NCBI GenBank assembly: GCA_020137815.1
Contig: CM035354.1
Span: 372,001 to 436,000, forward strand
DNA length: 64,000 nt
Source of the DNA: Hormiphora californensis
Lineage: Eukaryota > Animalia > Ctenophora
Reading direction: 5' to 3'
In this document: positions 2,973 to 48,378 of the stretch, one piece after another
Layout of the letters: every line of letters begins with the position of its first letter
Numbering within the stretch: the first letter of the stretch is position 1
The notes under the pieces: model-generated
The model's input: the letters and a program-made list of their open reading frames with translations, nothing else
The model's database searches: none
What the model was told of the DNA's origin: nothing
Program-made: the position numbers and the translations under genes

Positions 2973-3975
2973 TCTTTCCCTCTCTCTCTGATCTTTCTCT
3001 CTCTCCCTCTATCTTTTATTATTCTCTCTCCCAACTACAAGTTATTCGCAACAATCAAGTAATAAGGGGTTACTCAACAAAACTTTAGCATATAAATGTC
3101 AACTGCGATAAAGATCAACCAATTTCTTTATCCAAACTATTGTCAAACTCAGAACACCAAGTTAAAAAACGCTTGTTGAGTAAGTTGTTGAGTTACTCAA
3201 CAAAAAAACGCAGTTCCAGAACATCAAGTCAAAAGGGTTGATAAGAGTTTGTACTTCTTACACAAGCGTGAGCTTACAGAAATGTGTGTGATCTGCTGCC
3301 TAGCGGTTGTGTGCAAAATATCTATGCAAACGCCAAACATCTATTCGGTAAATGGTGAGTGCATTGCGAATTAATAAAATAGTTTAGTAACACCTGGACT
3401 CGGCGTGCCTGGTGAAATTTTAACACGGCCTAGATGCTGAGGGTCTATAATAGCAGCAAGTGTAACATCGTAACGACAACATGAACAATATATTGTGATC
3501 ACAATTGTGATTGTGGTATTTAATACCTTCCTTTTTAACTTGTTGGCAGATTACGTCATACCGATTATGCGTCAATGGAAGATAAGATGACGCGTGTGTA
3601 GAGAATGTAACTGCATGTCAGTCGGTTGTCGAAGAAATAACCCGTAAAATGCATAGCTATAACGAAGACTCAGTCGTGTAGTATGACTATGCCACGTCAT
3701 TCGGATGCAATATATTTCTACCATAAATTATGTGCACCAGTCCTGTACCAAACCTACAAAGTCAAATTATTCCTAATTCAAATTATATTGTTCCTCTCTG
3801 CATCTTTTATAAAACTACCCACGGGGTGTGCCACTGCATCAAGCAGTTTGATAGCCCACCCGGCAACTGCAATGTCCCTATATTGTTTAGCTTTCGTTGA
3901 CATAGCAATCTCACCAAGCTTGTACCATATATCACAATCCAGCCGCGTTATTGAGTACTGCATGCCTTGCATAGC
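2084..3975 (-). CDS. Possible spliced gene of unknown function (candidate exons 3975-3819 and 2391-2084)
   Basis: Strong polypyrimidine tract + AG (minus strand, plus-strand 3976-4012) precedes an open frame AMQGMQYSITRLDCDIWYKLGEIAM...HPVG ending at a phase-1 GT. A phase-compatible AG opens DLDTHMLHQLG...CYLLI* at 2391. No family recognised. Confidence 0.25.
2896..2966. repeat. (CT)n microsatellite; one of many (also ~12315-12414, 24876-24955, 32325-32453, 48869-49012, 63254-63405)
   Basis: Directly visible; explains the poly-SL / poly-ER pseudo-ORFs in the ORF track. Confidence 0.97.
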
Positions 3976-4066
3976 CTGAATGAAGAATCAATCAATCAAG
4001 AAAGAAAGAAAGTCTCAATCAATCAAAAAAGTCTCTTATTAACTCTCTGGTTTAGTTACAGCTAGG

Positions 4067-6100
4067 ATGGATTTAGAGACGGCTATTGGGAAAGACACCG
4101 TTGTGAAGATGGAAGATATTGCTGAGAGGGTGGTAAGAGTGGTTCGGCCATACTCTCGACCTATAGCTAAGGTAAGTCCTGCCATACTCTCAACCTATAG
4201 CTAAGGTAAGTCTGGCCCGGTTTACCGCGGTGGCCCCAGTTCACAATTGGTGACGCAGTCACCCTTACAACTTCCGTGCGTGGTAGTCAGTAGTACGGCA
4301 AAACGAAGCCCGCGAAAGTTCAAAATGCTTTGCCGGCCCATTATATACTGTTAAAATCCATATATTCCGAGCAGCCCGGTAAATCAGGGCCTCCGACATG
4401 TAAATAACACGAAGTACAGTTTTACCAATATAATTACACGAGCTCAACTGAATCTCCACACACCAATGATTTAACACACACTATAATACAGGTGAGTAGT
4501 TTGTTTTTCCACATCCTCATGGCTGCCCTTCTCATATTCGAATTTGAGAATGCCTCTTACTTCCTGGGGAGACAACTCGGATTGGTGTCGTACAAGCCGA
4601 AACTAATGAAAAACGAAGAAGGTAATTTCTTTGGCTGTGAGGGGATCGCCCTGTGGGCGCGTGAACAGGGGGCGAGACGTGCCCAAGTAATTTCTCGGTA
4701 ATATCTGATCCCAGTAATACTTTTATTATTAAGTAATTCAACAAAAATTCTCTATTACAGGTAGAGTTCTCGGGGCGGAAGGTTATTCAGCCACGTTTTC
4801 ATCTCGTTTGGTGGTCCTGGCCATCATTCTCACCCGGGTAATCCCCCTGGGTCTGATATTCCAGAAGAAACATATTGTGTGGTCATGCGTTGCTCTCAGC
4901 AGCTTTCCAATGCTAATTGTAAGTGTTGCATCATAGTAGAGTACTATTAGTAGTCTACTAATCTACTATTAGTAGAGTACGATATGAATAATATTTTAAA
5001 CTTTGAAACACATTTGCATTATTAGGAAAAAATGAAATCGCCCGAGTCACCCAATGAACTATTGAAATGTCTCGCGATATATCACCTGTATAAACCCTCT
5101 CTCTCTAGGCAGTATTGTACGTGGTTGAACGTCCCACGCTCATGGCCTTCTTCACCGTATTCACATGTCTTAGCCTCGTCGGATCCACTACTATGTTGGT
5201 GGCTGAGACCTTTGAGGAGACCAATGTTTACCTGGCGGGGTTACCCTCCCTGGGAATGAACAGGACGATGAGTCTTGCTCAGCTGCTGGCACGGGTCAAC
5301 CTCGTTCTAACTCTGTTCGGGGTAATTATATTATGGGGTCAACCTGGTTCTAACTCTCTTTGGGGTAATTATATGTAGTAGCTTAGTACCAATTCTCGTG
5401 GAATGTGTTGGTATAGGGGATCAATGGATCATCCTGGTATAATGGATTGGGACATTGGTAGATGGGACTGGGAAGTGGGAAGGGTGAAGCTGCATCTAGC
5501 GCGAGCAAAAAAATTTTTAGGAATTTTAATTCACACATTTACCTGGCAGTATTTTCCCGATATCTCTCCCCCAGGTCCACATGATCTATCTCCACATGAT
5601 AGCGGAGAATAAGGTCATATTCTGGTTACAACTCCTTCTGGTAGTACCCCTGGTTCTTTGTGTGGTTGTAGGATATAAAACCAGGCTGGCTGCCGTTATT
5701 GTGGCTGCCTGGCTACTCCTTGTTTCCCTGGTCTCCTATCCCTTCTACCTTCACCTGGCACACGGACGAACTTGGGGGTGAGTTGCAGTTTGGGGTGAGT
5801 TGGGGTGGGTGAGTTTTTATATTCTCCCCGCCCTTTTTTGAACAGCTATCAATTCCATAGTATTTTGTTGAGTAAGTTACGGTACTATAACGGTATCGTG
5901 GTTAAGTTTACTAATCCAAATATGGTCAGCTCCACAACAAAACTCTCCCACCCAATTTGTCAACCCTTGCTCGACCGTTTTTCGTTACACCATCTCCCTA
6001 AACCGATCTCTCCCCCTCTCTGGTAGGTTTTGGATGGAAGCTGCCCTGTTTAGTGTGAATATGCAAGCTGTTGGTTCTCTAACCATGATCGCTATCTTAG
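4067..6100 (+). CDS. SURF4: SURF4/Erv29-like ER cargo receptor (exons 4067-4171, 4492-4621, 4761-4918, 5109-5321, 5575-5777, 6027-6100; terminal exon not located)
   Basis: All introns GT-AG with compatible phases (0,1,0,0,2). Spliced protein MDLETAIGKDTVVKMEDIAERVVRVVRPYSRPIAK...MLVAETFEETNVYLAGLPSLG...LAQLLARVNLVL...CVVVGYKTRLAAVIVAAWL...FSVNMQAVGSLTMIAILG matches SURF4 motifs as recalled (AEDFADQFLRVTKQYLP; LLLAES..MFAGVPTM; VAIGFKTKLAA; FFQTMSVIGGLLLVVALG). Divergent, possibly a paralog. Confidence 0.8.
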
Positions 6101-6275
6101 GTGAGTACATTGACTTGCATCAGACCTTTTATCACGCTGGTGTCTGGATCAGTTATTATCAGACAGGAGCCATGTACTCGCCATTTTGATTTGGGGCATG
6201 CTATTTATTGGGCTCTCTATTAACGATTTGAGATGACTTTAAAAGCTGGGGTTATATTGTGGTTATGATTAACTG

Positions 6276-6354
6276 ACCGAATCATGAAATACTGGTCCCT
6301 GATTGGCTGATAACCAGTCACGTGACCTAAATAACGAGTTCTGATTGGTTCCTG
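6276..6354 (+). mobile_element. Truncated copy of the ~111-bp hAT-type MITE (see 47224-47334)
   Basis: gaccgaatc..gaaatactggtccctgattggctgataaccagtcacgtgacctaaataacgagttctgattggtt shared with 33751-33833 and 47224-47334. Confidence 0.8.
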
Positions 6355-6649
6355 GTTATGATTAACTGACCGATGGTTGCTGATTAGCTCCGTGATAAAT
6401 CGTGGAGCGTGGTCAAATGAACAAAAATATAGAAAGTGAGACTAGAGAGAGAACGGGAGAAATAAGAGAGAAAATAAGAGAGACAGAGAGAAAATAAGCT
6501 AGATTTGAGTTAAAGTCTCAGTAAGATGGGTATAGTTAGGTGTGAAAAGGCTGCAGGTATGAGCTGCTTTGGTTAATCAAATCCTCTAAAAGCCCAATAG
6601 ACCAGGTTTATTGCCTTTACCCTGCACACACACAGAAACATATATAATA

Positions 6650-7444
6650 GTGCAGTCCCGGTGTCCCGATTTTTTTTCACGCCTGGAATTTTCATTTTGG
6701 GAGCTCGTTTTGCTGCAGGAATTTTACTATTTGCTGCAGTCATTGAGTCATGGATAGGGATTTTACCGTCCTAAAATACCCCGGCAGTCCCAGTACCCCT
6801 AACATTGGAATATTTCCCTACTGCAGTCCCTATAAGGTTGGAATATTCCTTGGAATATTCCATTCTTGCAGTGCCTGCTGCAGTGCCTGCTGCAGCAGTG
6901 GAAATTCCTTGGAATATTCCACTAAGGGACTGCAACAGTGACTATAACGATCTCACCCCTTTGTAAAGCTATTGGGAGAAAAGAGAGCTATGTTAAAGTA
7001 TGAATCTCTCTTTTCTTCCCCTTCCCTGCTGCAGTGCTGCAGCGACTGCAGAGATGGAAAATTCCGAGAAAATTCCACTCGGGTACTGCAACAGTGACTA
7101 TAACGATCTCACCCCTTTGTAAAGCTATGGGGGAAAAAGAGAGCTATGTTAAAGTATGAATCTCTCTTTTCTTTCCCCTTCCCCCTTACTCGACTGTTGT
7201 CGGTGCATTACGCACAACTGGGGCATGCCCCAACATATTCTATCTCTCTGTTACACACTGTTAACACTGCAGCACTGCTGTATCTCTGTGTGTAAGTATG
7301 GGAAATATCTTCTGCTGCAGCAGCAGCTGCTGCTGCAGTCCCCCAATATTTTTTCATTTTGCTGCAAGGATTTTGTTTTGCTGCAGAATTTTTGCATTTA
7401 TCTTTCCTTCATATTCCAGAGATCGGGACACTGGGAGTGCAGTG
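6650..7444. mobile_element. Putative non-autonomous TIR element with internal ~155-bp direct repeat
   Basis: agtgcagtcccggtgtcccgat (~6650-6671) vs atcgggacactgggagtgcagtg (~7422-7444) form an imperfect IR; CTGCAG-rich interior; 6930-7026 is repeated at 7085-7184. Confidence 0.35.
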
Positions 7445-7997
7445 GGGAAGTTAGTTAACCCCTTACACAACTCCCTTTCTCGGTTATTCAGTGGGAGTTA
7501 TGAGGTATTATACACTCTACTGCAATATATATATTGTGTATTTTTCCCTCTTCTAACAATTATCAGCCTGTCAACTGACAGGGTAACACGTTGAAATGTG
7601 GATCCGTACAATAGAGAGAGGATTGTATTTTTCCAATTTTTATCTCCAAGTGGCTCCATGTTTCTGGCCCACCCTGTATAATAGTTCAGTGGGGAAGTTA
7701 GTTAACCCCTTACACAGCTCCCTAGTTCTCGGTTATTGAGCGGGAGTTATGAGGTATTATACACTCTACTGCAATATATATATATTGTGTATTTTTCCGC
7801 GCTCCAGCTTCCCCTCAGATTCAGACGATCTATTTGAGATCAGATTCCACATGGAATGTCCCTTGAAAATCCTAGCTGTTTTGTCTTGTTTTATTATGCA
7901 GTAACTATGACTTGATTGGTGGGGAGACTTTTTTGCTTAGGATCTCAATACAACCAGTCTGCTTTCTCTCTCTCTTTCTCTCTCTCTATTTTCCTCA

Positions 7998-8039
<42 letters not shown>

Positions 8040-8203
8040 ATTATTTGCTTGTCCCCTCTCTATTGTATGTGTGCTGCAGGCGCGTGTACCTAGTCTGAAA
8101 ACAAAGCTTTTAGTAATTGAACCGCCACCACACCATGTCTTATTCCCAGCAGGATTCCCATTGTATGTAAGATGGTGTAGCAGCACTGACAACACTCTCA
8201 GTA

Positions 8204-10765
8204 ATGTTGTCATGTTTCTCTCTGCTCCTGCTCCTTCTTCATCTTACTGCCGGTCAGTATGGGGACCTTCCAACTCATATCCAGCCCCTCTCCTACGACC
8301 TGTACCTTGACACCAACTTTGACACGTGGAAATACGAGGGTATCGTGAAGATCGTAGTGGATGTATCAAAGGCGGGGGATAAAGTTCTCAAACTACACGC
8401 CAAGGAGGGGGTTGAGATCAAGAAGATGGAGTTGAGGGATGCCAAGGGGAACAGAATTCAAAATCTCAAAGTGGGAGAAAGACAGAGTCTGAGTAAGGAT
8501 TTGTTGGTGTTAAAGTTAGATAAAGCCCTGGTGAAGGGGAGGTATGAAGTGTTCAGTGAGTTTAGTGGGACAGTATCAGCAGCTCTCACGGGATACTACA
8601 GAACAGGATATAAGTACAAAGGAGAGTTCATCAAGATGGCATCAACGCATCTCTCTCCAGATAAATCTCGGACTGTTTTCCCGTCTTTTGATGAGCCCCG
8701 ATTTAGGTCAACATTCGTGCTAACCCTAGTACATCCCAGCAGTCTTACAGCTATTTCCAACATGCCAGTGGATAAGAAGGTAAAACTAAAGGATGGCCGG
8801 ACCCGGACATCTTTTAAAAAGACACCTGGCATGTCAACTTATCTTCTAGCTTGGGTGCAGCACAATTTTATCTTCGGAGAGAAAGATATCGAGGGAGTGA
8901 GGCTGCGGCATTATGTCCGTCCCACTCACCCGGAAGCCATCGCTGAACGTCTGGAGCTCGTCGGTAAGGCCCTAAAGTACTTCAATAACTTCTTCGATAT
9001 ACCCTATCCTCTGCCCAAACTGGACACCATCGGGATCCCAAACTACCCGGTGGGGGGAATGGAGAACTGGGGCCTCATCACCCTAAACGAAGTGAGAGGA
9101 ATTGAAGCTCCTGAGGATAGATTCGGAACGGACGAGGTGTCATATCGGAACCTCCTCACTCACGAGGTGAGTCACATGTGGTTTGGTAACCTAGTAACCA
9201 TGAAGTGGTGGAATGACTTGTGGTTGAAGGAAGGAATGGCATCTTACCTGAGTTACCCGTGTGCCGGGGCCATCTTCAAGGACCTAAACATGGATGATTT
9301 CCTGATGAAAGAGAACTGGCAGGAGGGAATGATGGCGGATGATATGATAACATCCCACCCAGTCAGAATGAACATTAAATCCACCAGGCAGATCACCCAG
9401 ATATTTGATAAGATCACGTACAGCAAGGGGGCTGCAGTGTTGTATATGTTGAGAGATGTGATGGGGGAAGAGAATTTCAAAAAGGGTATGACTCACTTCC
9501 TGAACACCTATAAGTTTAGTATCGCCGAGTACAGTGGCTTGTTGACTAGTTTTGTTAAGTTCACCGATGAGCCAAAGACTGTTTCTCGATTCATGGACAC
9601 ATTCATTCTCCAGAAAAACTTCCCCTTGGTTACGGTCGAGGTGCTGTCAGATACCAAGATTAAGCTCACCCAAAGCCGGTATGTGAGGAAGAGCGGGGTA
9701 AAGGTGAAGGACGATAAGTCCCCTTTTAACTACTCCTGGTACGTGCCGATCAACATTGTGGCAGATACCTTCACAGTCACACAGCATATCTGGTTGAAGG
9801 GTAATGAACTAGTGCTGACGCTCCCTAAGAAGTTCTCCTGGCTGAAGCTGAACATAGAGGGCCGGCACATGTTTGTAACCCACTACCCTGCCAAACTACG
9901 GGCTGCCCTTCTGAAGCAGCTTGCCAAGAGCACCATCACCAAAAAAGAACTCAACCCACGGGAGAGATCCCACGTGTACGCTGAGATGTATCAAGCAGCC
10001 CAAATGAATCTCATCTCCTACGCCACTGTCCTGGAGACGACGACCCTCCTGCGGAGAGAGAGCCATTTCCTACCGTGGAGGATAACATATTACTTCCTGA
10101 AACGGCTCCGAATCTTCCTGCCCGGGGAGTATCACACATGCCTGCGAAGGTACGTTATCTCTCTCCTTAGGCCACAGTGGAGGAAGGTTCGGCGGATGGC
10201 CCACGAGTCCCGGGAACACCAGATCATGTTCGAGAATTTCTTCCTATACAGTAGAAGGTTCAGAAGAACTGCTGAGAACGTTCGAGCTAAGAATGATGAG
10301 CTGATGGCAGCTATTAACCGTTATAAGAACGCCTCTAAAGTGGACCGTGCCGACATTGATGTGTTCCTTGCGACCAATGACTCGGAGCAGGTTGAAATGA
10401 TTGGAAACACCGTGTTGGAGTACCCCTCCACGCAGCCATCCAGGATGCTGGAATTCATCAATACTTACAGTGAGAGGGCCCCCGGTGCAGTTTGGAAGGT
10501 CTATAAGACCCATTACACCACATATGACCGGTACTTTGGCCTGTCCCAGTTCATCTATGCTGGTGCGTTGAAAACAATGGCGAAACATCAAAAGGACCCG
10601 GAGACTATCAGTGAAATTGTGGCTTTCTTTGAGAAGCACACTGCGAGAAGTGGCGAGCTTGGACTAAGAAATGGGCTTGAGATTGCGCTGTTTAGAATTC
10701 AGTTTAGAAAGACAGCGGTGCCTGACATTGTAAAGTATCTGAAGAGTAAGGGCCATTGCAAATAA
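8204..10765 (+). CDS. Intronless secreted M1-family zinc aminopeptidase (APN/ERAP-like), 853 aa
   Basis: Hydrophobic signal peptide, FPSFDEP, GGMENWG exopeptidase motif, HEVSH(x18)E zinc motif (HEVSHMWFGNLVTMKWWNDLWLKEG), YSKGA catalytic Tyr, ERAP1-like C-terminal region. Confidence 0.95.
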   Translation: MLSCFSLLLLLLHLTAGQYGDLPTHIQPLSYDLYLDTNFDTWKYEGIVKIVVDVSKAGDKVLKLHAKEGVEIKKMELRDAKGNRIQNLKVGERQSLSKDLLVLKLDKALVKGRYEVFSEFSGTVSAALTGYYRTGYKYKGEFIKMASTHLSPDKSRTVFPSFDEPRFRSTFVLTLVHPSSLTAISNMPVDKKVKLKDGRTRTSFKKTPGMSTYLLAWVQHNFIFGEKDIEGVRLRHYVRPTHPEAIAERLELVGKALKYFNNFFDIPYPLPKLDTIGIPNYPVGGMENWGLITLNEVRGIEAPEDRFGTDEVSYRNLLTHEVSHMWFGNLVTMKWWNDLWLKEGMASYLSYPCAGAIFKDLNMDDFLMKENWQEGMMADDMITSHPVRMNIKSTRQITQIFDKITYSKGAAVLYMLRDVMGEENFKKGMTHFLNTYKFSIAEYSGLLTSFVKFTDEPKTVSRFMDTFILQKNFPLVTVEVLSDTKIKLTQSRYVRKSGVKVKDDKSPFNYSWYVPINIVADTFTVTQHIWLKGNELVLTLPKKFSWLKLNIEGRHMFVTHYPAKLRAALLKQLAKSTITKKELNPRERSHVYAEMYQAAQMNLISYATVLETTTLLRRESHFLPWRITYYFLKRLRIFLPGEYHTCLRRYVISLLRPQWRKVRRMAHESREHQIMFENFFLYSRRFRRTAENVRAKNDELMAAINRYKNASKVDRADIDVFLATNDSEQVEMIGNTVLEYPSTQPSRMLEFINTYSERAPGAVWKVYKTHYTTYDRYFGLSQFIYAGALKTMAKHQKDPETISEIVAFFEKHTARSGELGLRNGLEIALFRIQFRKTAVPDIVKYLKSKGHCK

Positions 10766-11195
10766 TGTGTGTACGTGTTCATGTATGTGTTCATGTATGT
10801 GTTTATGAATATGTATAATGTGTTTGAAACACTGTTTCGCTGATCTACAATTCGATCCAAGTTCGGTGTTTGTTGTACCTGCTGTGCATGAACTGAAAAA
10901 AGATACATGCTGCTCACTCTCAACCATTTCACTATTGATTTGAAAGAGCTGGATATGATGAACCTTAAATCACATTTGGAGCTGGACATATGCTGGAGCG
11001 CTCTGCAGTTGTTAACATTTGGCTGGAAGTGTTCTTTAGCGATATGATATTCCGTTATAATACACAGGTGCCGGAGTGTACAGTGTCGACCATGCAAAGG
11101 ATCTGTAATGTGGAAACTGGGAGATCAGCTTTTGGTGAAATTTAACACAAATTGTTTTAATAATTTTAACAAGAATGAATCGTCATTATTTGAAA

Positions 11196-11225
11196 CTAGT
11201 AGGCCCGTTCGCCCTACGGGCGAAT
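11196..11225 (-). mobile_element. Helitron-like 3' terminus
   Basis: Minus strand reads gcccgt-agggcga-acgggc-cta-CTAG|T, i.e. a GC hairpin just upstream of CTAG followed by T. The 5' TC end was not located. Confidence 0.4.
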
Positions 11226-11858
11226 TTCGGGGAAATGGTAGCTGGATTAGGGAACGCTGACATCACATGCACCATCCGTTCCTAGCCTCTCTCACTTTCT
11301 CCCTACCCATGTTGTTGTACGCTCTGGGCTTCCTGACAATGTCAAGGTGCGAATTTAAGAGATCAATGTCATGGAGGTGCAGTGCTGTTCCAGAAACTCA
11401 TCACGTGAAAACTTCGCCGCTATGTAGCCGATTCGGAGATTTCTATATTCGACTGGAGTAATCACCCTTGGGCGACGTTGGGTAAAGCTATCCGTAGTCG
11501 TTGTCCGTTGATTGGCTCGCTTGAACACGTTGGCGTAATCTGTCATATTCTCTAGCCTGCTCCCTGACAGCAGCAGATCTTCTGGACCTATATAACCGTT
11601 GCCGAATAGCGCTTGGGGTGGAAGAGCTAGACATCAGGACAGAAGTAAAAGAATGCACGTGCAGAATTGAATTGGCCCTTGGTACCCAAAACTGCAACTG
11701 GGAGTGAGGTTTCTAAGTTGCTCTAATAATTGCACGTGCAGGTGTAGTTGCTAGGTGATGTAGCACTGACAATTTGAATAGTAAGTATAAGTATGATGTT
11801 TACACTTAAATCTCCGACAGCTCATTTAGTCCTATGACACAGGCTCAGTCATATTCAG

Positions 11859-12115
11859 GATCAGTCATATTCAGGCTCAGTCATATTCAGGATCAGTCAT
11901 ATTCAGGATCAGTCATATTCAGGATCAGTCATATTCAGGCTCAGCCATATTCAGGATCAGTCATATTCAGGCTCAGTCATATTCAGGATCAGTCATATTC
12001 AGGATCAGTCATATTCAGGATCAGTCATATTCAGGATCAGTCATATTCAGGATCAGTCATATTCAGGATCAGTCATATTCAGGATCAGTCATATTCAGGA
12101 TCAGTCATATTCAGA
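11859..12115 (+). repeat. 16-bp minisatellite (caggatcagtcatatt) x ~16
   Basis: Directly visible; source of the QDQSYSGSVIFRISHI pseudo-ORF. Confidence 0.95.
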
Positions 12116-12332
12116 TCACGTGCTGTAAAAACCACCTCATACCCACCAGTGAATGAATGCTTTTATCGTATCGATGGCTGGGAGAAAGCCCTTTACAGTC
12201 ACTATTATGCTTTACGGGCTGTAAAAATAGGCTACAACCCATTCGACAAAGTGACCCAATAATTGACACCTTGATAGGATACTAGGATAGATAGATAGGT
12301 ATGTTTCTCTGTTTTCTCTCTCTCTCTCTCTC

Positions 12333-12419
<87 letters not shown>

Positions 12420-12481
12420 GCAGCACCTACGTAAACAATAAAGCTGCTGTATGCATCAGTTTCCTCTGCGCCTTTGTCAAG

Positions 12482-43382
<30,901 letters not shown>

Positions 43383-44698
43383 ATTACACATAGACTTATA
43401 GTCATGTTATGATGCCTGAAATGATGTGGTACATATATTATTCCCAATTCAAATTGACCACAAAAAACATGTTATACCGTATAAAATGTTTTTTGAATTT
43501 GCGGTCAATTTGCATTGGGAAAGGGACATTTATGTTTTATGGACGAGTGTATATTCTGTGTGGACACTGGACATACAGTATTCAAATTGACTTTTGAGTG
43601 TCATTCAGTTTAGACTGCAGTGACCCTTGGATACGCGACGGGTTGTAATTTACTGCACTGTCGAAATTGTAAACTCAAATAAAATCTACCAGTTCCCTGC
43701 TTAGTGGGATTCTACTGTACTGCTTAGTGGGTGTCTACTGAGAACATATAAGATAATCAAACTCAAAGGAACACGACTGTGCGGGTGTACCATTATAATA
43801 GTGTTGTGTTGGCACACGGAGAATATGTCTACTGAGAACTGAGTTCCCTTGATTGATTGATTTGGCCGAATTTAATTGATCAAATTGCTGTTCTATTTTA
43901 TTGCTATATTGTTTCACTTTCAAGTTCACCAGTTTTTAAAAAACTAAAATATTTTGTCGTTTTAAATTGTTGAACTTGACTGCGCCGCCCGTTTTGATCT
44001 TCAGTGCGTACTTTAGATCGGGCCGGTGACGCCAAACGGTTGTGAATGGAAAACATGCATGTGTAATTGTGTCAAGTATGTACGTGGTGTCAGTGATCAC
44101 GATGTTACCGGCACGGGCGGCACGCGCGTAATTATTCTTTATCAATCGCGGTGTGACGCGCAGCATTTGATTAAAAATGATTTCAAACTTGACAATTTTA
44201 AACAGGTCACGTGATCAAAATTCTAAAACCGTCAGATCTTGCTAAGTTCTTCCGAACCTCCAAATTTCAAGTCTCTATCTTATCAGGAACCGGAGATATG
44301 ACAAATTTGTTATTTCAGGGGGGTGACAGTTTCAAAAAATCCGAGTATAATCCGTTTATCACTCTTTTGCCGTTTTGGTCATTCTAAATTCTAATAACCC
44401 AGTCTATACATTTGCTTCAGTGAAACTTAGCAAAGATACAAAATGTATTCTTCGTAGTCTTTAGCGGTACCGAAAGGCCATGGAACTGTTTTGAGTAGAG
44501 TGCACTGTCAGTTACCAAAATAACGAAAACGGTGGAATGCGGCTCATTTCAGTTTTTGAGGCAGCTTTACTGGGTTATAATATATTCATGTCACCTTACA
44601 TTACACATTATTATACACTGCAAGCACTGGAGACTTTTCACTTCTCCACCACACCTTCTCTATTCGTTTATACACTCGTGTATCTGAGAGATTGAATT

Positions 44699-45799
44699 AT
44701 GAAGTTTTTGATTGTTTGTTTGGCTGTTTTTGCCCTGGCCTTGGCTGCCCCTGATGCCAAAGAGAAGGATGGGGAGTACATAATGGACATTCCAGAAGGT
44801 ACAACAATGAAGCACATGTAAAAATGTGACAACTTTTGAGTTGCTTTGCTCGACCCTGTTTGCAAATGTAAAGGAGGGTTAGAACATTACAACTTTTGAG
44901 ATGTTCTGGATAATGTGATGCTGAGAAAAAGCTATAACTCTCTTTTCATATTCTGAATAATGAGTTCAGAGCAAGAATTAAAAGTTCTGCCCGTGTATGT
45001 GTGAGATTCCCCATTAAACTGTTGTACAGAGGGCGTGTGTGTGTGTTGATCACCAGAAGGAGATATCAAAATTACTTCCCCCTCTCTTTTCATAGGTCTT
45101 GATTTTATTGAGGAGGAATTCATTGAACCAATCCCAGAAGAAGAAGTTGGTGATGAGGATATTGGATCTGCTGAGGTGAGTTTAGAGTCCCTAGAAAGTA
45201 TATTCTAGAGTCTTCAGCTTATAATGAATTATTAGATGACCTGTTACCATGTTTGGTTGCAATGTCATCATGGTTACCATGGTTACCATGGTTACAAGAT
45301 GAGACTCACATCAAACAAAACGTTATAGATTGAGATAATTGAAAAGGGAGTTCTTGTTACCGATTGGAGACCGGCTGCCAAATAAATTATCTAGGTTAGG
45401 CGCTGAGAATTTTTCGAAAAAAAATGAGAGAAGAATCAATTCATTACAGAGCGACGAAGTTCATATCATTGCCTCAAAGTGGGAGAAGCCGAGCAGAGAT
45501 CATTATTAAAAAGTCAGTCTGAGTCAGCGGACTTTTCTCTCTCTCCCAAATAATGCGGGAGAGAGAGAAAGGAAGTATATATCTCGTATATGTGATTTCC
45601 ATGATGCTAAGAACTTATAATCTGTCAAAATGGACGGGTATATATCATCCCCCCTCTATCTGGGGTGTACCTGTCGTCTGACCCCCATATATTTATCACC
45701 CAGGAAACGATCGAACTGCTGTCAAGAAGCGAGATGGACGCCCTCGAGAAGGATTTATCTGATATGGACCTTGTGATGGCTGATGGAAAGAAGAAATAA
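44699..45799 (+). CDS. Small acidic secreted protein / candidate peptide precursor, 91 aa (exons 44699-44798, 45096-45175, 45704-45799)
   Basis: GT-AG introns, phases 1 and 0. MKFLIVCLAVFALALA|APDAKEKDGEYIMDIPEGLDFIEEEFIEPIPEEEVGDEDIGSAEETIELLSRSEMDALEKDLSDMDLVMADGKKK*; AATAAA overlaps the stop. Confidence 0.75.
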
Positions 45800-45992
45800 A
45801 TATCTCTCTTTTATTTATCTGATATGGACCTTGTGATGGCTGATGGAAAGAAGAAATAAATATCTCTCTTTTATTTGTCTGATATATGGATCGTGTGATG
45901 GCTGATGGAAAGAAGAAATAAATATCTCTCTTTTATTTGTCTGATATATGGATCGTGTGATGGCTGATGGAAAGAAGAAATAAATATCTCTC
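45752..45992 (+). repeat. ~60-bp tandem repeat x4 of terminal codons + stop + polyA signal
   Basis: atttatctgatatggaccttgtgatggctgatggaaagaagaaataaatatctctctttt repeated; copies 3-4 share variants (tgtctgatatatggatcgtgtg). Confidence 0.92.
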
Positions 45993-46218
45993 TATTTCTC
46001 CTAGCTCTCTTTATTTAATCTTTAAACGCTTTTTCCTCAGTAGTGAGAATAAACCGTGATCAACCAGAGCAAGCAATCAAAATATGTGCTACCCACTTTT
46101 CCAAGAATTCTCATATCTCACTCATAATGATTTTAGTGTCGACCACTTCTCTTTTCTGATATCCTCTCAGTAATTAAATGTCACTCTGCTTTCATCAGTT
46201 TTCAGTTTGTATCTTATA

Positions 46219-47223: not shown

Positions 47224-47334
47224 CAGGAACCGACCGAATCAGGAAATACTGGTCCCTGATTGGCTGATAACCAGTAACGTGACCTGAATAACGAGCTCTG
47301 ATTGGTTGTTTACTCACGGCAGTGTCGGTTCCTG
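47224..47334 (+). mobile_element. Complete 111-bp hAT-type MITE
   Basis: 11-bp TIR caggaaccgac/gtcggttcctg; 8-bp TSD cttcattg at 47216-47223 and 47335-47342 (8-bp TSDs typify hAT). Confidence 0.85.
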
Positions 47335-47336
47335 CT

Positions 47337-48378
47337 TCATTGTTCCAAGAAAGATCTCCGCAGGATTTCTTGGAGATCTTTGTCCGTGTCTGACTCGTGT
47401 TCGGAACTAGTGCTGCTTGTATCACTAGATATATCATCACCATCATCATCATCTGGGGATAGATTCATCATATCAGTGTTATCAATGTTAGAGTCATCCG
47501 ATTCAGTGATGATTGCATCAAATTGAAGCTCGGGTGAAGAGCTAGGGATGCTATGGAGGGGAGAGGAATCTGACGATGAATCGGTGATGTGTATGATACT
47601 TTCTCTGCTGTTAGTCAATACAAAGGGCCGGTACCTACCTGTAGATGTTACAGTAGATGATGTAGTCTGCTCCTCTGCAGCTGCAGTACTCCTTCTTCCC
47701 CTTCCAAGTCCCACTCTGCGACGATTCTGGTGAATAACATCCCTTACACGGCGTCATACACATTTTTATTTGGAATTTCTATCTGGGATTTCTATTTGGA
47801 ATTTCTATCTGGAAGAACCGCACGTGCAGATGCGCCGCGCCGCGCCTCAAATTCACGTGCGAGATTAAAGAGAGAGACGCACATTAACGTTGTACGTTTG
47901 TCTCTCACTCTCTCTTGAAAACCCGCACGTGCAGATGCGCCGCGCCGCGGCTCAAATTCACGTGCGTGTTATACAGATTCTGACAGAAAATACGAGCACA
48001 AAATTCCATATAAAAATGTGTATGACGGACTGTTATGGCTGTCGCGTATACAAGGCTGGCCTCACTAGCTTGATCTCCGCGGGTTTGAATTGTAGCTGAT
48101 GCAGATCGAACCCTCCTCCTCCTCCTCCTTGATTCTTCAACCTTTCTCCACCTCCTCCAAATGAGAATTAAGTAGTTTCAAGATCCTCTCTAGCCCAAGG
48201 GATTCTCACCAGTCCTCAGGGGCTGTCGGCACAGTGGACAAGTTCTACCATCCACCGCCTGGATACATGAACTACAGAAAACATGTGAGCAGCAACTAGT
48301 GGTAACAAGGTGACTGGAGGGCAGATCAAGACAAATACTGCACCTCAGCTCCTCTTTTAACCGATCACAAAAGTCCAT
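47337..48378 (-). CDS. RING-finger (C3HC4) ... acidic linker ... UIM-like C-terminus; RNF114/138/166-like E3 ligase, middle disrupted by stops/indels
   Basis: MDFCDRLKEELRCSICLDLPSSHLVTTSCCSHVFCSSCIQAVDGRTCPLCRQPL from 48378. Last exon from acceptor at 47726 ends DTDKDLQEILRRSFLEQ*, resembling the RNF114-family terminal UIM. An in-frame stop follows the RING and the donor was not resolved. Confidence 0.6.
47752..48027. mobile_element. MITE in the RING gene intron
   Basis: cgtcatacacatttttatttggaattt (47752-47778) mirrors aaattccatataaaaatgtgtatgacg (48001-48027); internal ~45-bp direct repeat ccgcacgtgcagatgcgccgcgccgc. Confidence 0.65.

What the first reader, a model, noticed from the sequence alone, without database searches (positions are those of the whole stretch)
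4147..45992. Splice junctions act as seeds of tandem duplications/minisatellites, stacking decoy donors and acceptors into introns
Seen: in two genes reconstructed by phase, about 10 of the ~33 junctions in this window are the repeat unit of a local tandem duplication. Donors: 4171 (34 bp x2), 5321 (43 bp x2), 5777 (x3), 25311 (x6), 27616 (35 bp x~19), 34965 (partial). Acceptors: 27418, 34400 (33 bp x2), 35486 (34 bp x6), 43172 (degenerate CTAAC/pyrimidine reiterations). The stop/polyA site at 45799 of a third gene is repeated x4. Most units straddle the boundary (exon bases + GT, or branch/pyrimidine tract + AG + exon bases), and the copy contiguous with the unique exon keeps the frame. Inference: either a splicing/transcription-coupled mutational process (e.g. 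R-loop or paused-polymerase breaks repaired by templated duplication) targets RNA-processing signals, or a high background duplication rate is filtered by selection. Either way the spliceosome must choose among arrays of near-identical sites, a possible route to new alternative splicing or intron gain.
Basis: partly seen in the sequence, partly recalled or inferred. Interest (0 to 1): 0.85.

Follow-up and report, generated by a model that had tools for sequence, protein, structure and literature searches.

The report
Splice-junction "mirage" repeats in a ctenophore
In DNA that likely comes from a comb jelly, short pieces spanning exon borders are copied head to tail into the neighbouring introns at 7 to 9 of 33 splice junctions, far more than chance here; this repeat type is already known from lancelets and a few human genes and is likely harmless, and it likely arises from ordinary duplication piling up at exon edges rather than from splicing itself.

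Summary
The repeats are real. Nine of the ten named junctions lie inside a duplicated unit (34965 by 10 nt only); 43172 only abuts one. Counting each repeat once, 7 of 33 junctions are hit against 0.6-0.8 expected, and 0 of 63,600 shifts reach that. A per-base test shows nothing. Splice-like motifs that are not junctions stay at background. Contigs of a second study carry two arrays. A related organism lacks the 35486 array and has its own duplication over another acceptor. These are lancelet-type 'mirages' (PMC3087553); this scan noted them before in annelid, urchin, arthropod and ray DNA. My searches found no ctenophore report. Splicing-coupled seeding is not supported: repeats also sit at 3 of 6 stop codons, two in intronless genes, and 0 of 16 spliced junctions were copied. 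34 of 36 decoys give early stops; the acceptor at 34367 stays in frame. No genome or informative RNA was available and the window was picked for this feature, so genome-wide bias is untested.

The parts
4067..6100 (+). Gene 1, SURF4-like; exons 4067-4171, 4492-4621, 4761-4918, 5109-5321, 5575-5777, 6027-6100; last exon not found
   Evidence: Open frame; Pfam PF02077 on exons 4 and 5 at consecutive profile positions, each below the curated cut-off; exon-limited matches in run X7
4147..4212 (+). 34 bp x2 over donor 4171; decoy donor 4205 gives an early stop
   Evidence: no listed contig bridges it
5293..5374 (+). 43 bp x2 over donor 5321; decoy 5364 frameshifts
   Evidence: X1 contig 5183-5551 and X5 contig 5295-5651 with 0 differences; a second X1 contig leaves at 5331 and rejoins at 5477
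5772..5815 (+). Three short GTGAGT donor copies at 5777, 5794, 5808
   Evidence: detected only at score >=11
12482..43382 (+). Gene 2, 578 aa, C-terminal domain likely LURP-one/Tubby-C-like; exons 12482-12636, 23741-24064, 24209-24339, 25244-25311, 26972-27118, 27418-27616, 34400-34547, 34825-34965, 35486-35698, 43172-43382
   Evidence: Open frame; homologue P0004 58% identical over 197 aa across three junctions; ESM feature score 0.92 to PF04525 clusters, recognition below threshold, lead only; no Pfam hit. Exons 1-6 rest on open frame alone.
25304..25566 (+). Complex array with six donor-like copies from donor 25311; holds a piece also found near 33910
   Evidence: outside the stretches laid with reads
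27316..27423 (+). Three copies of acceptor 27418 (27322 live AG with in-frame stop, 27384 dead AA)
   Evidence: outside the stretches laid with reads
27605..28273 (+). 35 bp x19 minisatellite from donor 27616; all 18 decoys give early stops
   Evidence: outside the stretches laid with reads
34345..34409 (+). Perfect 33 bp x2 over acceptor 34400; the upstream copy (34367) would add 11 residues in frame
   Evidence: no listed contig bridges it
34958..35031 (+). 10-nt partial copy of donor 34965, 62 nt downstream
   Evidence: score 10 only
35298..35505 (+). 34 bp x6 over acceptor 35486
   Evidence: X5 contig 34958-35342 and X1 contig 35439-35814 each cross a copy-copy joint; X7 and X8 contigs match only from 35467 with 166 and 227 unmatched upstream letters
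43027..43171 (+). CTAAC/pyrimidine reiterations abutting, not straddling, acceptor 43172
44699..45799 (+). Gene 3, 91-aa acidic protein with a likely signal peptide; exons 44699-44798, 45096-45175, 45704-45799
   Evidence: Open frame only
45753..45993 (+). 60-62 bp x4 over the stop codon and AATAAA of gene 3
   Evidence: use as polyA signal untested
10770..10807 (+). 12 bp x3 starting 5 nt after the stop of the intronless M1 aminopeptidase gene
40192..40229 (+). 16 bp x2 starting 25 nt after the stop of the intronless LDLa-GPCR gene

Best explanation
These are mirage-type repeats: short DNA duplications that span exon edges and stack spare splice signals in the intron; they likely arise by ordinary microhomology-type duplication that piles up where conserved exon meets fast-changing intron, and they are likely silent. 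Shown: the repeats, their excess at junctions in this window, their presence or absence across alleles and a relative, and that alleles part company a few bases inside introns. Inferred: (1) a first 15-60 bp duplication forms by slippage or template switching; (2) it forms or survives preferentially at coding edges, because the exon is where two very different alleles still pair during repair and recombination, and because selection holds the exon-side copy fixed as a master; (3) some pairs expand into minisatellites by slippage or unequal exchange; (4) the spliceosome uses the exon-proximal copy, and stray products mostly carry early stops.
For: Event test 7 of 33 vs 0.62-0.82. The excess is sharp at the edge: straddling 7 vs 1.24, abutting 3 vs 0.66, 21-120 nt away 3 vs 2.9. 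Stop codons 3 of 6 vs 0.43, two in intronless genes. Non-junction splice-like motifs 12 of 391 vs real junctions 7 of 33, p 2e-4. Non-junction G/C runs are at background: G>=3 11 of 545, G>=4 2 of 181, C>=4 6 of 141, against 2.3%. A second X1 contig type leaves the window at 4628 and 5331, 7-10 nt into the intron, and X7 contigs leave within about 10 nt of donors. One intron is 7,473 nt here and an implied 146 nt in X7/X8. X7 has its own 52-nt duplication over acceptor 5109. A related ctenophore has 3.2% heterozygosity with more indels in introns (PMC8527503, passages). Proximal-site use is reported for human F7 and for lancelet mirages. P0004 shows no insertion at the exon 8/9 junction.
Against: One window, chosen because it showed the pattern; a true 2-fold bias would give 7 or more hits in 1 of 651 such windows. 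The per-base test is not significant. An earlier scan note reports no genome-wide excess in another invertebrate (e1-7908399, unchecked). The pairing-at-the-edge step was not tested directly. Microhomology is weak: 4 nt in 4 of 6 events only with +-4 nt of register slack, and similar in 13 other events. The 121-200 nt bin is also high (7 vs 2.3, partly the same events seen from the other end of short introns). The divergent X1 contigs could be a paralogue or a second animal. Which copy is spliced was not observed. P0004 begins downstream of the 34400 acceptor.
Confidence: 0.5

Rival explanations
1. There is little real bias. Duplications arise everywhere; those at junctions last perhaps twice as long because one copy is under selection, and this window is the lucky tail picked out by a large scan.
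For: The window was selected on the outcome. With a 2-fold bias, 7 or more hits occur in 1 of 651 windows. The per-base test is null. 57 repeat events lie in the window, most far from junctions. Earlier scan notes report a modest or no genome-wide excess elsewhere (unchecked).
Against: At score >=10, 9 of 33 has probability 1 in 49,364 under a 2-fold bias and 1 in 2,425 under 3-fold (threshold chosen after the fact).
Confidence: 0.27
2. Transcription or spliceosome assembly makes breaks or R-loops at RNA-processing signals, and repair duplicates them.
For: Real junctions are hit and look-alike motifs are not. All 4 donors with a G-run of 3 or more are duplicated vs 2 of 13 others, p 0.006, post hoc. 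The stop/AATAAA unit is repeated.
Against: 0 of 16 spliced junction 16-mers are found, which argues only against a spliced-RNA template. Duplicated acceptors carry C-runs on the RNA-like strand (3 of 8 vs 0 of 8, p 0.10), the opposite of what favours R-loops (established knowledge). Repeats follow the stops of two intronless genes, although these are transcribed too.
Confidence: 0.13
3. The copies are kept because they work, as alternative splice sites that give new isoforms or tune output through nonsense-mediated decay.
For: Decoys keep consensus GT/AG, and 34367 keeps CTAAC and the pyrimidine tract and the frame. Human 6-16 and CBS use proximal pseudo-sites (PMC1557585, passages).
Against: 34 of 36 decoys truncate the protein. 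The 35486 array is absent from X7/X8 contigs, and copy 2 at 5321 is absent from a second X1 contig. Lancelet mirages are reported not to disturb splicing.
Confidence: 0.06
4. The repeats are assembly artefacts of noisy long reads.
For: The window holds a near-identical 3.5-kb duplication with a noisy tail (17444-20917 vs 21055-24574), which looks like an assembly fault.
Against: Contigs of two studies carry the 5321 and 35486 repeats with 0 substitutions (X1 may be the source sample, X5 is another study). Copies differ by clean substitutions. An artefact would not know where exons end.
Confidence: 0.04

Closest known systems
Lancelet (amphioxus) 'mirages': globins BflGb6 and BflGb9, Adh3, troponin C, PGBD5 (PMC3087553 and PMC3902484, passages seen; the Adh3 and troponin C papers not read)
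   Same: Tandem units span exon-intron borders at both 5' and 3' ends, keep AG/GT signals, fall in the reported 10-160 bp range, and differ between haplotypes.
   Different: Here in a likely ctenophore; seen at 7-9 of 33 junctions of three neighbouring genes, with a counted excess over shifted positions; also at stop codons. Splicing outcome and somatic instability are untested here.
Human junction-spanning VNTRs: F7 intron 7 (37 bp), CBS intron 13, interferon-inducible 6-16, lamin B2, PDGF (PMC1557585, abstract and passages seen)
   Same: The first unit spans a donor and identical pseudo-sites follow; 27616 (35 bp x19) has the same build as F7.
   Different: The human cases are scattered single loci on the donor side; here acceptors and a stop/polyA site are also copied, and many are simple two-copy duplications.
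Intron gain by tandem duplication of AG/GT proto-splice sites (Rogers model, as cited in PMC3087553 passages)
   Same: Local duplication multiplies splice signals.
   Different: All junction copies here lengthen existing introns; none turns exon sequence into a new intron.

Membership tests
Lancelet-type mirages | Tandem unit spans an exon-intron boundary and repeats the splice signal | tested here: met
   7 of 33 junctions at score >=12 and 9 of 33 at >=10; 43172 does not qualify
Lancelet-type mirages | Both donor and acceptor boundaries affected | tested here: met
   4 donors and 3 acceptors at score >=12
Lancelet-type mirages | Unit length in the minisatellite range (10-160 bp reported) | tested here: met
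   33-43 bp for the five regular arrays, 14-17 bp at 5777; range
Lancelet-type mirages | Length or presence varies between haplotypes | tested here: inconclusive
   A second X1 contig does not run into copy 2 at 5321, and X7/X8 lack the 35486 array; copy numbers cannot be read from short-read contigs, and the X1 contig may be a paralogue
Lancelet-type mirages | Normal splicing undisturbed; the exon-proximal copy is used | not testable with these tools
   No RNA holder was listed; homologue P0004 agrees with the proximal acceptor at 35486 but is another organism's protein
Lancelet-type mirages | Somatic instability (reported for Adh3) | not testable with these tools
   Needs single-molecule data from one animal
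Intron gain by tandem duplication (Rogers model) | Duplicated exonic AG/GT segment spliced out as a new intron | tested here: not met
   All junction copies lie inside existing introns; the one exonic duplication, 36 bp at 23924, is in frame in the model used
RNA-templated repair or retro-copying of spliced RNA | Copies carry exon-exon joined sequence | tested here: not met
   0 of 16 spliced 16-mers found on either strand at <=1 mismatch; an unspliced template is not excluded

The most novel reading that the evidence does not exclude
Mirages are the footprint of a general edge-directed mutation process in highly heterozygous animals. Exons are the only islands where alleles still pair; repair synthesis primed in the exon runs out into an unalignable intron, often at a G-run, slips back and duplicates the edge at about ten times the background rate. 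That would give one cause for mirages in lancelets, urchins, annelids and now a ctenophore, and a steady supply of new splice sites such as the in-frame acceptor at 34367.
Probability: 0.2. Interest if true: 0.72.

Novelty: new member of a known kind. Interest (0 to 1): 0.38.

Why it matters
The lancelet globin paper calls the origin of mirages unclear, and my searches listed no genome-wide count of them. A ctenophore case would extend them to one of the earliest-branching animal lineages. This window gives a clean split test: if the excess follows conserved-sequence edges and allele divergence, it is a recombination effect; if it follows germline expression, it is transcription-coupled. The perfect, in-frame acceptor pair 34367/34400 is a natural experiment on 3' splice-site choice. 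In practice such arrays also mislead gene annotation. If the genome-wide excess is small, this is an ordinary by-product.

Tried and rejected
No whole genome is held, so there is no genome-wide test. No RNA holder was listed; the one guessed-RNA run, X12, laid a single repeat contig and no exon, which is no evidence on expression. X5 shows no cover at 4072-4233, which is no evidence either way. Word-indexed protein searches with single exons found nothing. The per-base enrichment test was null; I set it aside because long arrays count hundreds of times, but I report it. G/C runs as the seed on their own: rejected, since 4 of 48 non-junction units hold a run of 4 or more vs 4.59 expected. Splice-like motifs as the seed: rejected (raw 2 of 113, 3 of 107, 4 of 87, 7 of 88; four rows that are themselves decoys of the junction arrays were dropped to give 12 of 391; two looser donor patterns, 7 of 127 and 4 of 125, were not used). 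A breakpoint signature specific to junction events was not found. A metagenome scan for independent DNA of this clade gave two short contigs, L001 and L002, too small to test anything. The last SURF4 exon was not identified. The unmatched X5 sequence upstream of 43157 was not used, because the tool skips repeats there. Literature searches on ctenophore repeats at splice sites, genome-wide mirage counts, and heterology-edge duplication listed nothing on point (listings only; the library lacks most subscription journals). No supplements were opened.
Full report
Setting. No whole genome is held. The window's intronless GST is 90% identical to P0002, whose cluster holds an EukProt entry of Pleurobrachia bachei, so the organism is likely a pleurobrachiid ctenophore (inference). 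Intronless genes nested in introns fit that group (PMC8527503, passages).

Gene models. I rebuilt three genes by phase: 17 donors and 16 acceptors, all GT-AG. Gene 1 is SURF4-like: exons 4 and 5 hit PF02077 at profile positions 113-167 and 165-221, each below the cut-off, and run X7 matches it exon by exon. Gene 2 is open for 578 aa. Homologue P0004 aligns at 58% over 197 aa across the exon 7/8, 8/9 and 9/10 junctions, and X7/X8 contigs carry exons 9 and 10 in order. Gene 2 exons 1-6 and gene 3 rest on open frame alone.

The observation. TRF and direct listing confirm 4171 (34 x2), 5321 (43 x2), 27616 (19 donor copies), 34400 (33 x2), 35486 (34 x6) and 45799 (four stop/AATAAA copies), the complex six-copy array at 25311, and three acceptor copies at 27418. 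5777 and 34965 are short matches seen only at lower scores. 43172 is abutted, not straddled.

Is it more than chance? Per base, no: 3-6 of 33 against a 7-10% whole-window background in seven settings, a background driven by a few long arrays. Counting each repeat once and asking whether a donor lies in its first copy or an acceptor in its last: 7 of 33 vs 0.62 at score >=12 (57 events, 0-1 in shuffled sequence; 0 of 63,600 circular shifts), 6 of 33 at scores 14 and 16, 5 of 33 at 20, and 9 of 33 vs 0.62-0.72 at score >=10. Stricter versions hold: head-to-tail arrays only, 4 vs 0.34 (15 of 63,600); the 18 junctions with outside support only, 4 vs 0.34 (13 of 63,600); and a background without coding sequence and array interiors, expected 0.82. 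The window was chosen for this pattern. A true 2-fold bias would give 7 or more hits in 1 of 651 windows, a 3-fold bias in 1 of 76. The size of the bias is therefore not established.

Are the repeats in reads? Two stretches were laid (3100-7950 and 33300-46100); 25311, 27418 and 27616 lie outside them. The 5321 pair is in an X1 contig (5183-5551) and an X5 contig (5295-5651), both with 0 differences. The 35486 array has a copy-copy joint in X5 (34958-35342, 0 differences) and in X1 (35439-35814, one gap). X1 may be the source sample; X5 is another study. 4171, 34400 and 45799 are not bridged by a listed piece, and the tables are cut. A second X1 contig leaves at 5331 and rejoins at 5477, so it does not run into copy 2. 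X7 and X8 (one sample of a related organism) match from 35467 only, with 166 and 227 unmatched letters upstream, so they lack that array. X7 has its own duplication over acceptor 5109 (back 41 nt plus 11 letters between). The repeats thus come and go between alleles or close relatives.

What seeds them? Not the motif: splice-like words that are not junctions are duplicated in 12 of 391 cases after dropping four decoys, near the 4.2% baseline. Not G/C runs alone. The excess sits at the edge: straddling 7 vs 1.24, abutting 3 vs 0.66, 21-60 nt 2 vs 1.17, 61-120 nt 1 vs 1.77, and 121-200 nt 7 vs 2.30, partly the same events seen across short introns. Stop codons behave alike, 3 of 6 vs 0.43, two of them in intronless genes. 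No spliced junction was copied (0 of 16). Among real junctions, all 4 donors with a G-run of 3 or more are duplicated vs 2 of 13 others (p 0.006), and 3 of 8 acceptors with a C-run of 5 or more vs 0 of 8 (p 0.10); both cut-offs were chosen after looking. In both cases the G-run lies on the strand that reads from exon into intron, a symmetry about the exon and not about the transcript. Breakpoint microhomology is 1-4 nt and not distinct from other repeats. Alleles diverge abruptly just inside introns (X1 joints at 4628 and 5331; X7 at 4179, 4630, 4925), and one intron is 7,473 nt here against an implied 146 nt in X7/X8.

Mechanism. I commit, at 0.5, to ordinary local duplication that piles up at coding edges: the exon is where unlike alleles still pair, and selection keeps the exon-side copy as a master. 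The pairing step is inferred, not tested. Rivals: small bias plus a lucky window (0.27), transcription- or splicing-coupled damage (0.13), selected alternative splicing (0.06), artefact (0.04).

Consequences. Of 36 decoys tested, 34 give an early stop. 34367 adds 11 residues in frame. 35417 is open in the assembly but depends on a poly-C length; the X1 contig over it has one gap at a place not shown. In human F7 only the first of the repeated donors is normally used (PMC1557585, abstract and passages), and lancelet mirages are reported not to disturb splicing (PMC3087553 and PMC3902484, passages). Which copy is used here was not observed.

Comparison and novelty. The structures meet the anatomical definition of mirages. 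I saw the Adh3 and troponin C cases only as cited. Six searches (listings, with passages from four papers) showed no ctenophore case and no genome-wide count; the library is partial. This scan has noted the same kind of repeat in annelid, urchin, arthropod and ray DNA, one note with a modest and one with no genome-wide excess (unchecked), and none naming a ctenophore. Verdict: new member of a known kind, interest 0.38. The open point worth pursuing is whether the edge bias is genome-wide and follows allele divergence.

Noticed in passing
window:17444-24574: A 3.5-kb direct duplication (17444-20917 vs 21055-24574), about 99% identical over the first 2.7 kb, then 773 of 1,022 columns in a noisy tail with a garbled copy of gene 2 exons 2-3. 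Likely an assembly fault; it doubles a cysteine-rich intronless gene on the minus strand.
   Followed up: partly
window:35699-43171: This intron is 7,473 nt and holds an intronless LDLa-GPCR gene (36976-40167), but is an implied 146 nt in X7/X8 contigs: the nested gene likely arrived, or was lost, recently.
   Followed up: partly
window:12809-16649: A large foldback element: 1.5-kb inverted arms (94.7%) enclosing two inverted 40-bp minisatellite blocks, inside the first intron of gene 2.
   Followed up: no
window:29797-31357 and 41079-41839: Two more long palindromic elements in gene 2 introns; an X5 contig runs from 40962 to 41970 without the second.
   Followed up: no
window:23924-23995: A perfect in-frame 36-bp duplication inside exon 2 of gene 2; exons 2 and 3 also begin with similar peptides and exons 1 and 2 end alike, suggesting older internal exon duplication.
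   Followed up: no
window:12686-12735: An exon-like stretch with AG and GTGAGT ends just after gene 2 exon 1; in the phase of exon 1 it meets a stop. Possibly a poison or dead exon; left out of the 33 junctions.
   Followed up: no
window:25465-25522 and 33910-33967: A piece inside the 25311 array matches sequence 8.4 kb downstream: a templated insertion or shared repeat fragment.
   Followed up: partly
window:44699-45799: Gene 3 encodes a 91-aa acidic protein with a likely signal peptide, ending in GKKK; it may be a peptide precursor (inference). Not searched.
   Followed up: no
window:6271-6350, 33751-33833, 47225-47307: An 80-bp dispersed element with three copies in the window and very high summed contig depth in X1, X5 and X7.
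   Followed up: partly
window:47337-48507 (minus strand): A RING-finger-like frame and an acidic frame separated by a decayed inverted repeat (47752-48027); structure unresolved, no junction counted.
   Followed up: no
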